Shown here one piece after another: positions 3,738 through 6,883 of a DNA stretch of 6,883 nt (position 1 is the stretch's first letter; each line of letters starts with the position of its first letter). Source of the DNA: Salmonella phage IKe. A program made the translations under genes and the position numbers. The stretch lies in sequence record NC_002014.1, one strand, 5' to 3'. The notes beneath the pieces are model-generated. The model had not been told where the DNA came from. It saw only the letters and a program-made list of their open reading frames with translations, and ran no database searches.

Positions 3738-4835
3738 ATGGCTGTTTATGTTGTTACAGGTAAATTAGGTGCTGGTAAAACTCTGGTTGCTGTATCACGT
3801 ATTCAGCGCACATTAGCGAAAGGTGGCATTGTTGCCACCAATTTAAATCTTAAACTGCATCATTTTCCTCAAGTTGGAAGATATGCAAAACAATGCCGTG
3901 TTATGCGTATTGCTGATAAGCCAACTCTGGAGGATTTAGAATCTATTGGTCGCGGTAATTTAACTTATGATGAATCAAAGAATGGCTTATTAGTTCTTGA
4001 TGAATGTGGTACTTGGTTTAACTCAAGAAACTGGAGCGATAAATCAAGGCAGCCTGTTATTGATTGGTGTTTACATGCACGTAAATTAGGTTGGGATATT
4101 ATCTTTATTATTCAGGATATTTCTCTGATGGATAAGCAAGCGCGTGATGCTTTGGCTGAGCACGTTGTCTATTGTCGTCGCTTGGATAAATTGAATATAC
4201 CAATCATCGGTGGGTTAATATCTGTATTATCTGGTGGTAGATTACCGTTACCAAAAGTGCATTTTGGTATTGTTAAATATGGTGATAATCCTCAATCTTT
4301 AACTGTCGATAAATGGGTTTATACGGGTACAGATTTATATGCTGCTTATGACACTAAACAGATATTCACCAGTGACCGCGAGATAAGCCCTCCTTACTGC
4401 CCGCTTTCTCCTTATTATACTCATGGTATTTTTTCTGTAAAAAGGGATGCAAAATATTATATGCGCATGACTAAAATCTATTTCAAAAAAATGAATCGCG
4501 TTTTTTTAATGGCCTCTTTTCTTGCTCTTGGTGCTGCCTGTGGCATTTTTTATAAATCTCAAGCCTATTCTAATCAGCTTCAACATATCCAAGACAATTC
4601 TAAAACATCTGTGATCAGCAAAACCGATCAAAGCGCGGAAATATTACCTAGATTATCGATCAACTCATATTCTCAAATGGGTTATGATGTATCTGTTACG
4701 TTTAAAGACGCTAAAGCCAAAATCTATAACTCATTCGATTTGATTAAAGATGGTTATAGAGTGGATATTAAAGATGCGTGCCATGTAACCATTGTTAAGA
4801 AATCATATATACAACAAATTACTTGTGAAGGTTGA
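3738..4835 (+). CDS. I: Gene I protein (pI), inner-membrane assembly ATPase
   Basis: ATG at 3738 (MAVYVVTGKLGAGKTLV; M13 pI begins MAVYFVTGKLGSGKTLV). Walker A motif GKLGAGKT encoded at 3759-3782. Conserved blocks LLVLDECGTWFN, IDWCLHARKLGWDIIF and ALAEHVVYCRRLD. TGA stop at 4833-4835. The ORF-track start at 3675 is an upstream TTG extension. Confidence 0.93.
   Translation: MAVYVVTGKLGAGKTLVAVSRIQRTLAKGGIVATNLNLKLHHFPQVGRYAKQCRVMRIADKPTLEDLESIGRGNLTYDESKNGLLVLDECGTWFNSRNWSDKSRQPVIDWCLHARKLGWDIIFIIQDISLMDKQARDALAEHVVYCRRLDKLNIPIIGGLISVLSGGRLPLPKVHFGIVKYGDNPQSLTVDKWVYTGTDLYAAYDTKQIFTSDREISPPYCPLSPYYTHGIFSVKRDAKYYMRMTKIYFKKMNRVFLMASFLALGAACGIFYKSQAYSNQLQHIQDNSKTSVISKTDQSAEILPRLSINSYSQMGYDVSVTFKDAKAKIYNSFDLIKDGYRVDIKDACHVTIVKKSYIQQITCEG
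4461..4835 (+). CDS. XI: Gene XI protein (pXI), in-frame internal start within gene I; membrane assembly protein
   Basis: In-frame ATG at 4461 (MRMTKIYFKK) corresponds to the M13 pXI start (MKLTKIYLKK), followed by the transmembrane segment FLMASFLALGAACGIF. The SD is weak or distant, so the start is assigned by homology; ATG 4467 is an alternative. Confidence 0.7.
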   Translation: MRMTKIYFKKMNRVFLMASFLALGAACGIFYKSQAYSNQLQHIQDNSKTSVISKTDQSAEILPRLSINSYSQMGYDVSVTFKDAKAKIYNSFDLIKDGYRVDIKDACHVTIVKKSYIQQITCEG

Positions 4836-4837
4836 TT

Positions 4838-6151
4838 ATGAAATTACAGGCTGAAAAGAAATTAATTTTTGGGTATGTTGCTCTCTGTTTCCTTATGACA
4901 TTAGGCATTGCATTTAATGTTCTGGCTGATCCGGTCAATTTAAATAACGCTCCGGTGCGTTCGTTTGTGCAATGGTATTCGCAAAAATCTAATAAAGCTG
5001 TTGTTGTAAATCCTGATGTTAAAGGAAATATTACTGTATTTAATGCAGATGTTAATCAGGCCAATATTGATGATTTCTTTAAGTCTGTTCTTAACGCTAA
5101 TGGCTTTGTTCTTATGGCTGGTGATCCTTCAGGTGTGTCTACTCCGTCAAAGCTGCCTTCTCAACAGACCGATAATGATGATGATTATGAAGATTCCGCG
5201 GATTATGTTCCGGTTGGTGATTCTGTTCCGGTATCTGCCCAACCGCAAAAGCCTTTAGATCTTACCGTTCGCAATTTTAAGTTAACCCGCGTGCGTTCTT
5301 CTGACGTTCTTCCGCTTGCCAAAATCTTTGTCGATTCCAACGGTGGCGGCGATGTTATTGATTACCCAGGCAATAACAGCCTGTTGGTTTCTGGTTCTGC
5401 TGCTATCATGAATGCCCTGGCTGATTTCATTACGTCAATCGACGTTGCCCGTGATCAGGTTCTTATTCAGTCGCTTATGTTTGAAACCAGCTTAGTTAAT
5501 GGCGTGGATCTTTCTTTTGCTGCCGGTTCTGCTTCTGGTGATAAGGTCGCAGGCGGTTTCAATACATCTGCTCTTGGCACTGCACTTTCAACTGCTGGCG
5601 GTTCCTTCGGCATCTTTAACGGTAATGTTTTAGCGTTATCCATTCAGGCGGTAAAAAATGACTCTAATTCAAAAGTTATTTCTACCCCGCGCATCCTGAC
5701 GCAATCAGGTCAGACAGGTTACATCTCTGTAGGTCAAAATGTGCCGTTTGTCACTGGTAAGGTAACGGGTGAGGCTGCAAATGTTAACAACCCTTTCCAG
5801 ACCATTGAGCGCCGCGATGTTGGTGTTTCTCTTAAGGTGACGCCTGTTGTCATGGGTAATGGTCAGCTTGTTCTTACCATTGATACCAAAGCTGACTCCC
5901 TAACCAGTCAAATGACTGCTAGCGACATCATTACTAATCAGCGTCATATGCAAACGACAGTGCAGATAAAAGACGGTCAGACGCTTTTGCTTGGTGGTCT
6001 TATCGATTCCAATACAACTGACGGTAATCGCTCTGTACCTTGGTTTGAAAGCGTACCTGTGATTGGCTGGTTGTTCCGCAGCCATAGTGATTCGCATAAC
6101 GAAAGAACTATGTTTGTTCTCCTTACCGCGCACGTTATTAAGGCGCTTTGA
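4838..6151 (+). CDS. IV: Gene IV protein (pIV), outer-membrane secretin for phage extrusion
   Basis: ATG at 4838 (AAGG at 4827-4830), 3 nt after the gene I stop. N-terminal signal peptide, then blocks matching M13 pIV: LDFSFAAGS, SAGGSFGIFNG, STPRILT, VGQNVPFVTG.VTGE.ANVNNPFQTIER, DGQTLLLGGL. TGA stop at 6149-6151. Confidence 0.93.
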   Translation: MKLQAEKKLIFGYVALCFLMTLGIAFNVLADPVNLNNAPVRSFVQWYSQKSNKAVVVNPDVKGNITVFNADVNQANIDDFFKSVLNANGFVLMAGDPSGVSTPSKLPSQQTDNDDDYEDSADYVPVGDSVPVSAQPQKPLDLTVRNFKLTRVRSSDVLPLAKIFVDSNGGGDVIDYPGNNSLLVSGSAAIMNALADFITSIDVARDQVLIQSLMFETSLVNGVDLSFAAGSASGDKVAGGFNTSALGTALSTAGGSFGIFNGNVLALSIQAVKNDSNSKVISTPRILTQSGQTGYISVGQNVPFVTGKVTGEAANVNNPFQTIERRDVGVSLKVTPVVMGNGQLVLTIDTKADSLTSQMTASDIITNQRHMQTTVQIKDGQTLLLGGLIDSNTTDGNRSVPWFESVPVIGWLFRSHSDSHNERTMFVLLTAHVIKAL

Positions 6152-6340
6152 GGCTGCCGGGTAGGTGCGCTAGCCCTGCCCGTAGACTCTTGCGCCTCTC
6201 CGTGTGCGCGGCTTCGATACAACGTATGTTCCTCGGTTTTCACATCCATAATGGCTGCGGTGCTAACGGCTAGTTAGTACGTGATAATTTTCACGTACTC
6301 CGCCCTTCTCTTTCGGCGTTCTCCGGCGTCGAATCGTCAA
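6152..6340 (+). other. GC-rich noncoding segment at the position of the Ff morphogenetic (packaging) signal; includes a 9-bp-stem hairpin at 6276-6299
   Basis: Lies immediately after gene IV, where the hairpin A packaging signal sits in Ff phages. GC-rich against an AT-rich genome. Perfect inverted repeat agtacgtga (6276-6284) / tcacgtact (6291-6299) with loop taattt. The exact packaging hairpin could not be folded by eye. Confidence 0.3.
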
Positions 6341-6344
6341 ACGC

Positions 6345-6460
6345 TAAATCGTGGGGGCCCCTTTGGGCCGATTTAGTGATTTACGACACTCCATAAATAT
6401 CCTTGTTATGGGTGATGGTTCACGTAGTGGGCCATCGCCTTGTTAGACGTTTTTTTCTTT
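6345..6460 (+). other. Minus-strand (complementary-strand) origin region, the site of RNA-primer synthesis by host RNA polymerase on the ssDNA
   Basis: Strong similarity to the Ff minus-strand origin as I recall it (aaatcg.ggggc.ccctttgggccgatttagtg...). The 30-nt block 6410-6439, gggtgatggttcacgtagtgggccatcgcc, appears identical to M13. Confidence 0.6.
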
Positions 6461-6473
6461 TGGTGATCGATAA

Positions 6474-6550
6474 GCGATTTTGTAGTTTGACGGTCGTAGA
6501 CGAAAGGACGTGGAAGCGGCGATTTTGGATCTGGCAGTCGGCTCGGTCGT
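6474..6550 (+). repeat. Imperfect direct duplication within the inter-origin spacer
   Basis: gcgattttg occurs at 6474-6482 and 6519-6527; cggtcgt occurs at 6491-6497 and 6544-6550. The spacing is consistent with an imperfect duplicated unit of about 45-53 nt. GATC sites at 6465-6468 and 6528-6531. Confidence 0.4.
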
Positions 6551-6553
6551 GGT

Positions 6554-6600
6554 GAGTCCACTATGTTTAATAGTGGACTCTTGTTGCATTTTGCAACGTG
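6554..6600 (+). other. Plus-strand replication origin core: pII nick-site hairpin and adjacent pII-binding hairpin
   Basis: Perfect 11-bp inverted repeat gagtccactat (6554-6564) / atagtggactc (6570-6580) with loop gttta, homologous to the M13 nick hairpin (gagtccacgttctttaatagtggactc). By analogy, the nick is between T6568 and A6569. Second hairpin gttgca-ttt-tgcaac at 6583-6597, at the position of Ff hairpin E. Confidence 0.8.
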
Positions 6601-6798
6601 CTACAGCCCTCTCTCCTTCAAAACTCCTTCGATTGCTTCTTCAAGTTTATGTTTTATAAGATAATTTATCAGTTCTGATTTTTTTATAGGCAAACCAGCT
6701 CTTTTTGTTGCTTCGACAGTTGCCGTTACCAGTAAATTTTGCATGTGCCTATTGATAGTTACTGTAGTTCTACTGCCTCTTTTACCTAGTGTATTCAT
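6601..6798 (-). CDS. Hypothetical small basic protein (65 aa) encoded antisense in the intergenic region; putative ribbon-helix-helix (CopG/Arc/MetJ-like) DNA-binding protein
   Basis: Minus-strand ATG (plus 6796-6798), preceded on the minus strand by AGGA (plus 6807-6810) with an 8-nt spacer. The ORF stays open in AT-rich noncoding DNA. The product has a basic N-terminal tail, a predicted beta-strand (TTVTI), helix A (NRHMQNLLVTATVEATKRA), a G-containing turn (GLP) and helix B (KKSELINYLIKHKLEE), resembling the RHH pattern. No homology search was possible. Confidence 0.35.
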   Translation of the reverse strand: MNTLGKRGSRTTVTINRHMQNLLVTATVEATKRAGLPIKKSELINYLIKHKLEEAIEGVLKERGL

Positions 6799-6828
6799 AA
6801 AATAAATCCTAAAGATCTTTACAAATAG

Positions 6829-6856
6829 TTGCGTTTAAATTTACATGTGTTAAATT
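6829..6856 (+). promoter_or_regulatory. Putative gene II promoter (circular context): -35 TTGCGT, 16-nt spacer, extended -10 TGtTAAATT
   Basis: -35-like TTGCGT at 6829-6834 and TGnTAAATT at 6848-6856, about 35 nt upstream of the gene II ATG once the window is circularized. Weak match, assigned by eye only. Confidence 0.3.
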
Positions 6857-6883
6857 ACGCACATGGTGAGTGTTTGAGTGCTT

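What the first reader, a model, noticed from the sequence alone, without database searches (positions are those of the whole stretch)
6462..6553. About 90-nt insertion with internal imperfect duplication between the minus-strand origin and the plus-strand nick hairpin
In Ff phages (from memory) the conserved minus-origin block ...ggccatcgccctgatagacggtttttcgccctttgacgttg is separated from the nick hairpin gagtccac by only a few nucleotides. Here the homologous flanks (6410-6460 and 6554 onward) are separated by about 90 extra nucleotides. The extra segment contains two copies each of gcgattttg and cggtcgt in the same order, suggesting a duplicated unit, plus two GATC Dam sites. This is not present in the Ff sequence as I recall it and could affect primer-RNA termination, origin spacing, or serve as a binding site array.
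Basis: partly seen in the sequence, partly recalled or inferred. Interest (0 to 1): 0.4.

Follow-up and report, generated by a model that had tools for sequence, protein, structure and literature searches.

The report
pSC101 par-like element beside phage origin
The ~90 extra bases between the two replication origins of this IKe-type filamentous phage are not a private insertion: they are a conserved copy of the core of the pSC101 plasmid "par" element, a non-coding, origin-adjacent DNA that in pSC101 binds DNA gyrase.

Summary
Compared with M13, the window (phage IKe by length and G+C) has about 83 extra bases between the Ff-like minus-origin block and the nick hairpin. GCGATTTTG and CGGTCGT each occur exactly twice in the genome, both times inside the segment.

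The "IKe-specific insertion with an internal duplication" reading does not hold.
- The segment is present in I2-2, in I2-2-like and IKe-like metagenomic phages, and partly in PEar4.
- It is more conserved than four-fold degenerate sites of gene II.
- It shows no coding constraint and folds no better than shuffled sequence as single-stranded DNA.

A profile built only from plasmids, including the pSC101 par locus, hits window 6468-6520 at 27.7 bits (E 4e-8). The best of 2000 shuffles scored 7.0 bits. M13, G4, ColE1 and F scored nothing.

The family shares a nearly invariant core, GGTCGnAGACrAAAGG, flanked by AGCG boxes at -19 and +23.

Homology is well supported. The mechanism is inferred from pSC101: gyrase recruitment keeps the adjoining gpII nick site negatively supercoiled. 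The main rival is a single-strand role in minus-strand priming.

The parts
6335..6445 (+). Ff-type minus-strand origin block (hairpins B and C). Context only; lies left of the finding.
   Evidence: About 80% identical to f1/M13 5625-5750. The hairpins are predicted in single-stranded DNA and conserved in L009 and L019 with some compensatory changes.
6438..6461 (+). CCTTGTTAGACG followed by a T-run. This motif ends the minus origin and also begins the region that matches the plasmid par-type profile.
   Evidence: The profile that included phage L008 aligns from window 6438. The same CCTGnTArrC + T-run is seen in L008-L012, I2-2, pYR8, pEU30, Pantoea, L036, L039 and L043.
6462..6553 (.). It is non-coding, G-rich on the viral strand, unstructured, and conserved.
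   Evidence: 77% identical to L008 and 72% to L009, against 57% and 54% at four-fold sites of gene II. Single-stranded DNA folding z-scores are +0.8, +0.3 and -1.2. G 35 against C 14, the second-highest G-C excess in the genome.
6472..6482 (+). Left flanking box AAGCGATTTTG (AGCG at 6473, which is -19 from the core start).
   Evidence: An AGC(G/C) box at -19 is present in IKe, L008, L009, L036, pSC101, pEnMCR4, the Providencia plasmid, pCKF, pEU30, Pantoea, Shewanella and L043.
6492..6508 (+). Core GGTCGTAGACGAAAGGA, matching the nearly invariant core of the par-type family (GGTCGnAGACrAAAGG).
   Evidence: Fifteen consecutive invariant columns across six plasmids and L008. Plasmid-only profile hit at 6468-6520, 27.7 bits, E 4e-8. 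Shuffle maximum 7.0 bits. pSC101 core at 4857.
6515..6527 (+). Right flanking box AGCGGCGATTTTG (AGCG at 6515, which is +23 from the core start). It corresponds to pSC101 CAGCGATTTG at 4879.
6528..6553 (+). Linker between the par-like core region and the nick hairpin. Conserved only among IKe, PEar4, L008 and L009, and loosely in the Shewanella plasmid.
6554..6580 (+). gpII nick hairpin GAGTCCACTATGTTT/AATAGTGGACTC. The nick is inferred between 6568 and 6569 by analogy with Ff. Context only.
   Evidence: 11-bp perfect inverted repeat. Aligns with the M13 nick hairpin. 96-100% conserved in L008 and L009. The nick position rests on my memory of the Ff literature.

Best explanation
Window 6468-6527, the centre of the reported segment, is a phage-borne copy of the core of the pSC101-type par element. 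It consists of an AGCG box, a 17-nt core (GGTCGTAGACGAAAGGA) and a second AGCG box 42 bp from the first. In pSC101 and other Rep_3 iteron plasmids this non-coding element lies 400-600 bp upstream of the initiator gene, in the same orientation; in pSC101 it is about 130-150 bp from the origin (DnaA box). Here it lies 76 nt upstream of the gpII nick site, which is followed by gene II. Shown here: the homology, the conserved geometry, the lack of coding constraint or single-strand structure, and sequence constraint above the synonymous rate. Inferred: that it acts as duplex DNA in the replicative form. By analogy with pSC101 par, it would recruit DNA gyrase (or another host factor that reads the core) and keep the adjoining origin negatively supercoiled. 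gpII needs that state in order to nick (from my memory of the Ff literature). Ff phages do without it.
For: A profile built from 7 plasmids only, with pSC101 par included and no phage rows, hits window 6468-6520 at 27.7 bits, E 4e-8. It also hits L008, L009, L019 and I2-2 at comparable E-values. The best of 2000 dinucleotide-preserving shuffles of the intergenic region scores 7.0 bits, and M13, G4, ColE1 and F 40-70 kb score at most 1.3 bits. The earlier plasmid profile, which included the pSC101-like pEnMCR4 and phage L008, hits pSC101 4709-4883 at E 8e-24. That stretch lies inside the published delta-par deletion that destabilises a pSC101 derivative (PMC4041236). The review PMC5043065 states that par binds gyrase, raises negative superhelicity at the origin and enhances replication. 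Box-core-box spacing (-19/+23) is identical in IKe and pSC101 and in most family members. The order element, then origin, then rep gene is the same in pSC101, pEnMCR4, pYR8, the Providencia p4kb plasmid and the phages. The segment is 77% and 72% identical between IKe and L008/L009, against 57% and 54% at four-fold sites (binomial p 3e-5 and 3e-4). L008 keeps the segment although its minus-origin block is different, so the segment travels with the nick hairpin and gene II side. No stable single-strand fold, no Rfam family, no Pfam hit for its ORFs.
Against: Only part of par is present. There is no inverted partner of the core (pSC101 has TCCTTTTGT at 4968), there are two rather than four CAGCG boxes, and the par left half is replaced by Ff-type hairpins. 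Pairwise pSC101 against the window is weak on its own (E 0.19), so the link needs the family profile. I could not obtain the gyrase cleavage position within par, so I do not know whether the shared core is the part gyrase uses. A 15-nt nearly invariant block is more specific than gyrase normally requires. L010, L011, L012 and Ff lack the core yet are presumably viable. The conservation test compares an optimised alignment with codon third positions, and modules may have different histories.
Confidence: 0.45

Rival explanations
1. The segment works on the single-stranded viral DNA as a 3' accessory domain of the complementary-strand (minus) origin. It could, for example, position RNA polymerase or a primosome at the primer start, and par-type elements in plasmids would then be single-strand initiation signals.
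For: The homology with the plasmid family begins at CCTGnTArrC + T-run, which in Ff is the template of the RNA primer (from memory: pppAGGGCGAAAAACCGUCUAUCA...). That motif directly follows a G+C-rich hairpin in both phages and plasmids. The element is on the viral strand, in one orientation, in all seven phage genomes seen. In L008 it adjoins a non-Ff minus-origin block. The left half of the plasmid element contains hairpins with some compensatory changes. GTTTGACG 6485-6492 can pair with CGTCAAAC 6335-6342 and so close hairpins B and C; this pairing appears in the centroid fold.
Against: The segment itself folds no better than shuffles. It is absent from Ff, whose minus origin is fully functional, and from L010-L012. 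There is no similarity to the G4 oric, the ColE1 primosome site region or the F leading region. In pEU30 the element lies on the strand that is not transferred, by my inference from gene orientation. From memory, pSC101 par works in either orientation. With the plasmid-only profile, the left halves of L008, L010 and L011 are not significantly par-like.
Confidence: 0.25
2. The segment is a Rho-dependent terminator (rut site) for the antisense transcript of the conserved 65-codon ORF at 6798-6601. It would stop that transcript from running into the minus origin and gene IV.
For: On the minus-strand RNA the segment is 38% C and 15% G, about 90 nt long and unstructured. A conserved antisense gene ends 48 nt upstream of it on that strand. 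No intrinsic terminator was found for that strand.
Against: The same core and boxes are conserved in plasmids with no such antisense gene. A rut site does not need a 15-nt nearly invariant block. L012 has the antisense gene but only about 33 nt of unrelated spacer.
Confidence: 0.07
3. The segment is functionally neutral spacer DNA: an old insertion or tandem duplication tolerated between the two origins.
For: Ff, L010, L011 and L012 do without it, and L010 has about 180 nt of unrelated DNA at the same place. Self-similarity within the segment is weak but present.
Against: It is conserved well above the synonymous rate. It shares a nearly invariant core and fixed box spacing with unrelated replicons. 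The homologous region of pSC101 has a deletion phenotype.
Confidence: 0.05
4. The segment encodes a small protein on the minus strand: ATG at 6589 to TAA at 6443, 48 codons, possibly coupled to the upstream 65-codon ORF.
For: The frame is open in IKe, L008, L009 and L011, and similar ORFs start at the same ATG in L010 and L012 (L010 and L012 read by eye).
Against: IKe against L008 shows 18 non-synonymous and 2 synonymous codon changes (plus a synonymous stop-codon change). IKe against L009 needs two out-of-frame indels. There is no ribosome-binding site and no Pfam hit, and the first 12 codons are simply the nick hairpin.
Confidence: 0.03

Closest known systems
pSC101 par (partition) locus, a cis-acting strong gyrase site next to the pSC101 origin
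   Same: Non-coding. Shares the core GGTCGGAGACAAAAGG (pSC101 4857) and CAGCGA boxes at -19 and +23. Lies upstream of an origin and its initiator gene in the same orientation. Profile homology at E 4e-8 with a plasmid-only model.
   Different: IKe has only the central 60-90 nt. It has two of the four CAGCG boxes, no inverted partner of the core and no par left half. It sits beside a rolling-circle nick site rather than an iteron origin. Gyrase binding and any phenotype are untested in the phage.
Ff (M13/f1/fd) intergenic region: minus-strand origin hairpins B and C, then the gpII nick hairpin
   Same: The flanks of the segment are homologous to Ff (about 80% over 6335-6455, and the nick hairpin). 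The gene order and origin order are the same.
   Different: Ff has about 8 nt where IKe has about 90. The par-type profile scores nothing on M13.
I2-2 intergenic region (X14336) and I2-2-like genomes (K. pneumoniae 'plasmid p4', L044)
   Same: The same core (GGTCGCAGACGAA(C)AGG) and the +23 box lie between an Ff-like minus origin and the plus-origin region.
   Different: These genomes lack the -19 box and have a different plus-origin/gene II module. From memory, the I2-2 paper reported no homology between the I2-2 and IKe origin regions.
Plasmid single-strand initiation signals (phiX174-type primosome sites, G4-type sites, F Frpo)
   Same: Origin-adjacent, non-coding elements found in plasmids and single-stranded DNA phages, sometimes next to ssb in leading regions (pEU30 and Pantoea contexts).
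   Different: No sequence similarity to the G4 oric, the ColE1 primosome site region or the F leading region. The segment has no stable hairpin.

Membership tests
pSC101-type par element | Sequence homology to the par core region | tested here: met
   Plasmid-only profile (including pSC101 4700-4905) hits window 6468-6520 at 27.7 bits, E 4e-8. Shuffle maximum 7.0 bits; negative controls at most 1.3 bits.
pSC101-type par element | Core flanked by AGCG boxes at fixed spacing | tested here: met
   AGCG at -19 and +23 from the core start in the window, exactly as in pSC101 and most family members.
pSC101-type par element | Non-coding, cis-acting DNA | tested here: inconclusive
   The non-coding part is met: 18 non-synonymous against 2 synonymous codon changes in the only open frame, and no Pfam hit. 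Cis action cannot be tested here.
pSC101-type par element | Lies beside a replication origin, upstream of the initiator gene, in the same orientation | tested here: met
   Window: core 6492, then inferred nick at 6568/6569, then gene II at 7. pSC101: core 4857, DnaA box 5006, iterons 5102+, repA 5273. Same order in pYR8, the Providencia plasmid and pEnMCR4.
pSC101-type par element | Full par architecture: four CAGCG boxes, an inverted copy of the core about 110 bp downstream, and left-half hairpins | tested here: not met
   Only two boxes and one core are present. No inverted partner lies before the nick hairpin. The left half is occupied by Ff-type hairpins.
pSC101-type par element | Preferential binding and cleavage by DNA gyrase; raises local negative supercoiling | not testable with these tools
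   Known for pSC101 from the literature (PMC5043065, PMC6379681). The gyrase position-weight matrix and the cleavage coordinate were not available.
pSC101-type par element | Deletion destabilises the replicon or lowers its replication | not testable with these tools
   Shown for a pSC101 derivative (PMC4041236). No data for IKe.
Ff-type minus-strand origin (RNA-polymerase-primed) | Stable hairpins in the viral strand | tested here: not met
   The segment alone has z-scores of +0.8 (IKe), +0.3 (L008) and -1.2 (L009). The hairpins lie in 6335-6445, outside it.
Ff-type minus-strand origin (RNA-polymerase-primed) | Present in Ff phages | tested here: not met
   The segment has no counterpart in M13.
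Ff-type minus-strand origin (RNA-polymerase-primed) | Primer RNA start or stop maps inside it | not testable with these tools
   No primer mapping for IKe was available.
G4-type or phiX174-type single-strand initiation signal | Sequence blocks shared with the G4 oric or the ColE1 primosome assembly site | tested here: not met
   No hit of the family profile in G4, ColE1 or F 40-70 kb.
Tandem duplication / insertion | Two units significantly alike within the segment | tested here: inconclusive
   Best self-alignment is reached by 15/300, 38/300 and 11/300 shuffles. The two short words are unique to the segment and correspond to conserved flanking boxes.
Rho-dependent terminator (rut) | C-rich, G-poor, unstructured RNA downstream of a gene | tested here: inconclusive
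   The composition and lack of structure fit, and an antisense gene lies upstream. But the conserved core also occurs where no such gene exists.

The most novel reading that the evidence does not exclude
pSC101 par is not unique to pSC101. It is one member of a widespread family of origin-adjacent elements: Rep_3 plasmids, some conjugative plasmids, and IKe/I2-2-like filamentous phages. The family is defined by a nearly invariant core of about 16 nt, GGTCGnAGACrAAAGG, between AGCG boxes four helical turns apart. That degree of invariance across unrelated replicons points to a specific host factor, or to a single-strand priming function, rather than the loose sequence preference of gyrase. If so, the accepted gyrase-site explanation of par is incomplete, and the phage version provides a minimal form in which to test it.
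Probability: 0.3. Interest if true: 0.7.

Novelty: new member of a known kind. Interest (0 to 1): 0.5.

Why it matters
A recent review still describes the par locus as unique to pSC101 (PMC5043065), and how par works has been debated since 1980. A conserved family with a nearly invariant core and fixed geometry, occurring in iteron plasmids, conjugative plasmids and rolling-circle phages, gives a comparative definition of the functional core. It also offers a very small, easily mutated test system: a 6.9-kb phage whose close relatives lack the element. For filamentous phages, it explains a long-known length difference between the IKe and Ff intergenic regions. It also suggests that IKe-type origins carry their own supercoiling or accessory element, which matters for IKe- or I2-2-based vectors and for reading origin modules in metagenomic inoviruses. 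No paper in the searchable library mentions the core sequence or links par to IKe or I2-2. Older subscription literature could not be checked.

Tried and rejected
- Rfam, permissive threshold, on the window and four plasmid or phage loci: nothing relevant.
- Sigma-70 promoter and intrinsic terminator scan of 6100-6883: no promoter-like site on either strand; one weak terminator-like hit that overlaps the nick hairpin.
- Coding hypotheses for three ORFs over the segment: no Pfam hit; substitution pattern not that of a coding sequence.
- Single-strand hairpin within the segment: not better than shuffles. The alifold third hairpin (T-run with GACGAAAGG) relies on G-T pairs and has no compensatory support.
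- Hammerhead-like reading of CUGAUGGUCGGAGACGAAAGG: one core residue is missing and stem II is too short. Rejected by inspection.
- G4-type, phiX174-type or Frpo-type initiation signal: no similarity.
- pHW126/pIGRK 'ssi + conserved region' as the same element: could not be checked, because no sequence is given in the text, and those plasmids have very low G+C.
- Genome-contig scan with gpII: no relatives. A nick-site pattern found only a distant Zobellella element without the segment.
- PEar1, PEar2 and PEar6 as evidence that the segment is dispensable: rejected, because those records also lack the nick hairpin itself.
- Gyrase motif scan: the Topo-Seq matrix and the pSC101 cleavage coordinate were not held.

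Full report
**What the window is.** It is a complete 6883-nt filamentous phage genome with the Ff gene order. Its length and 40.5% G+C match the figures given for phage IKe in PMC7697814. The closest records in the phage collection are the Erwinia PEar phages (about 92% identity), then I2-2. Ff phages match at the DNA level only over the minus-origin block. The IKe record itself is not in that collection.

**Checking the observation.** Aligned with M13, 6300-6460 matches the M13 minus-origin block and 6554 onward matches the nick hairpin and gpII site. Between them the window has about 83 more bases than M13, in two blocks that flank an Ff-like TTTGACGGT at 6486-6494.
- GCGATTTTG occurs at 6474 and 6519, and CGGTCGT at 6491 and 6544. 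These are the only copies of each word in the genome.
- GATC occurs at 6465 and 6528.
- A gapped self-alignment of the segment is only marginally better than shuffles: 15/300 in IKe, 38/300 in L008 and 11/300 in L009.

So the description is accurate. The "duplication" is weak as a one-genome statistic.

**Relatives.** gpII-based and pattern searches of IMG/VR gave five related phage genomes. The table summarises what lies between the minus origin and the nick hairpin in each.

| Genome | gpII identity to window | What lies between minus origin and nick hairpin |
|---|---|---|
| L008 | 97% | The segment, although its minus-origin block is different |
| L009 | 94% | The segment |
| L010 | 82% | About 180 nt of unrelated DNA |
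| L011 | 72% | About 75 nt that is only loosely similar |
| L012 | 66% | About 33 nt |

The segment therefore belongs to a sub-lineage and travels with the nick hairpin and gene II side. PEar4 has most of it in a permuted order. PEar1, PEar2 and PEar6 lack it, but they also lack the nick hairpin, so I do not treat those records as evidence.

**Constraint.** The segment is 77% (L008) and 72% (L009) identical to the window. Four-fold degenerate sites of gene II in the same pairs are 57% and 54% identical (binomial p 3e-5 and 3e-4). The nick hairpin and gpII site are 96-100% identical. The segment is therefore under selection, though less strict than at the nick site. One caveat applies: an optimised nucleotide alignment is being compared with codon third positions.

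**What it is not.**
- *Coding sequence.* A 48-codon minus-strand ORF (ATG 6589) is open in several relatives. But 18 of 20 changed sense codons between IKe and L008 are non-synonymous, and IKe against L009 needs out-of-frame indels. No Pfam family matches.
- *A hairpin in the viral strand.* Folding energies equal those of shuffles, in contrast to the flanks.
- *A known RNA family, or a consensus promoter or terminator*.

The segment is strongly G-rich and C-poor on the viral strand, with the second-highest G-C excess in the genome.

**The link to plasmids.** blastn of the segment against plasmids gave weak hits, all stacked on its centre. The hits were in pEU30 and a Pantoea plasmid (between ssb and an stb operon), in the Shewanella MR-1 megaplasmid, and in a 6.8-kb Klebsiella "plasmid" that is really an I2-2-like phage RF. 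A 36-nt consensus then found 49 plasmid records, all in unannotated DNA. Among them were small Rep_3 iteron plasmids in which the site lies 400-600 bp upstream of rep, on the same strand. Aligned, these elements are poorly conserved overall (57% mean column identity). They nevertheless share a block of 15 invariant columns, GGTCGGAGACGAAAG, and an upstream CCCTGnnAnGC motif.

Hits in E. coli lab strains led to pSC101. The family profile matches pSC101 4709-4883 at E 8e-24. This stretch lies between traD and the origin (DnaA box 5006, iterons from 5102, repA 5273). It is the classical par locus: it lies wholly inside the delta-par deletion (4612-4894) that makes a pSC101 derivative unstable (PMC4041236).

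**Is the window really a member?** A profile made from seven plasmids only, with no phage rows, hits window 6468-6520 at 27.7 bits, E 4e-8. It hits L008, L009, L019 and I2-2 similarly.
- The best of 2000 dinucleotide-preserving shuffles of the intergenic region reaches 7.0 bits.
- M13, G4, ColE1 and F 40-70 kb reach at most 1.3 bits.
- Pairwise pSC101 against the window is weak (E 0.19), but it aligns the same bases.

The geometry is also the same. An AGC(G/C) box lies at -19 and another at +23 from the core start in IKe, pSC101 and most members. I2-2 and its relatives carry the core and the +23 box at the equivalent place. The element is thus shared by the IKe/I2-2 group and absent from Ff.

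**Mechanism.** What is shown: homology to the par core, conserved spacing, position and orientation relative to an origin and its initiator gene, sequence constraint, and the absence of coding constraint or single-strand structure.

What is taken from the literature: pSC101 par is a strong gyrase site that raises negative superhelicity at the origin and enhances replication (PMC5043065, PMC6379681).

What is inferred: in the IKe replicative form the element does the same for the nick site 76 nt away. From my memory of the Ff literature, gpII nicks only negatively supercoiled RF.

I put about 0.85-0.9 on the homology and about 0.45 on this mechanism. Three weaknesses remain.
- Only the central part of par is present.
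- I could not find where gyrase cuts within par.
- A 15-nt nearly invariant block is more than gyrase usually needs.

**Main rival.** The homology starts at CCTGnTArrC + T-run, which in Ff is (from memory) the template of the minus-strand primer. The element always lies on the viral strand. In L008 it adjoins a non-Ff origin block. The plasmid left half has hairpins with some compensatory changes. So the family might be a single-strand initiation signal, with the segment as its 3' domain. Against this:
- The segment is unstructured, and Ff manages without it.
- It has no similarity to known ssi types.
- In pEU30 it lies on the non-transferred strand, by my inference from gene orientation.

A Rho-dependent terminator for the conserved antisense ORF, neutral spacer DNA and a small ORF are minor rivals (see those entries).

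**Novelty.** The IKe sequence and its longer intergenic region have been known since 1985. What seems to be new is that the extra DNA is a par-type element, and that pSC101 par belongs to a family with a nearly invariant core that spans plasmids and filamentous phages. The searchable library has no paper containing the core sequence or linking par to IKe or I2-2. A 2020 paper treats this region as simply intergenic. Older subscription papers on the IKe origin were not available. I therefore file it as a new member of a known kind, of moderate interest.

Noticed in passing
window 6601-6798, minus strand: A 65-codon ORF (MNTLGKRGSRTTVTINRHMQNLL...) lies antisense in the 'intergenic' region between the nick site and gene II. 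It is conserved at the protein level in all seven relatives examined (28-85% identity to the IKe protein). It matches phrog_2503 (unknown function; E 2e-7 for IKe, 4e-17 for the Klebsiella p4 copy, which RefSeq annotates as hypothetical). It is absent from the annotated PEar and I2-2 records and has no Pfam or PDB sequence hit. By eye it looks like a ribbon-helix-helix regulator; that was not tested..
   Followed up: partly
L002, L003, L004 (PEar2/1/6) and L001 (PEar4) against window 6474-6735: The PEar1, PEar2 and PEar6 records lack the equivalent of window ~6479-6735, including the gpII nick hairpin. PEar4 has two adjacent blocks in swapped order, with one breakpoint exactly at the inferred nick site (TTT/AAT) and another inside the par-like core. 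These are either assembly artefacts or rearranged, defective genomes. None of these four records shows an intact plus origin.
   Followed up: partly
window 6335-6342 and 6485-6492: CGTCAAAC just 5' of hairpin B is perfectly complementary to GTTTGACG inside the segment. It appears as a closing stem around hairpins B and C in the centroid fold. Ff has the shorter CGTCAA/TTGACG at the equivalent places. It competes with the lower stem of hairpin B.
   Followed up: partly
window 6443-6589, minus strand: A 48-codon ORF starting at the ATG inside the gpII-binding repeat TTGCATTTTGCAA stays open in IKe, L008, L009 and L011, but without protein-level conservation.
   Followed up: yes
window 6844-6865: An inverted repeat, CATGTG-N10-CACATG, lies in the short divergent region between the antisense ORF and gene II. 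It is conserved in the PEar phages and nearly so in L007, and is a candidate operator.
   Followed up: no
L019 (NZ_CP132687.1) and L036 (IMG/VR 2869113522_000001): A 6814-bp K. pneumoniae 'plasmid p4' is an I2-2-like filamentous phage RF deposited as a plasmid. L036 carries two par-like cores 6526 nt apart, suggesting a tandem dimer of a ~6.5-kb element.
   Followed up: partly
L005 (I2-2, X14336) 2419-2432: Compared with its close relatives L019 and L044, the 1989 I2-2 record lacks about 80 nt spanning the right arm of hairpin B and most of hairpin C (gtgggggcccc|atcgccctg). Its antisense ORF is cut short at 44 codons. These may be errors in the old sequence.
   Followed up: no
L020 (pEU30) 2340-2560 and L021 (Pantoea plasmid) 2350-2565: In two conjugative-type plasmids the par-like element lies between convergent ssb-hyp and stb operons in the presumed leading region, not next to a rep gene. 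It sits on the strand I infer is not transferred.
   Followed up: partly
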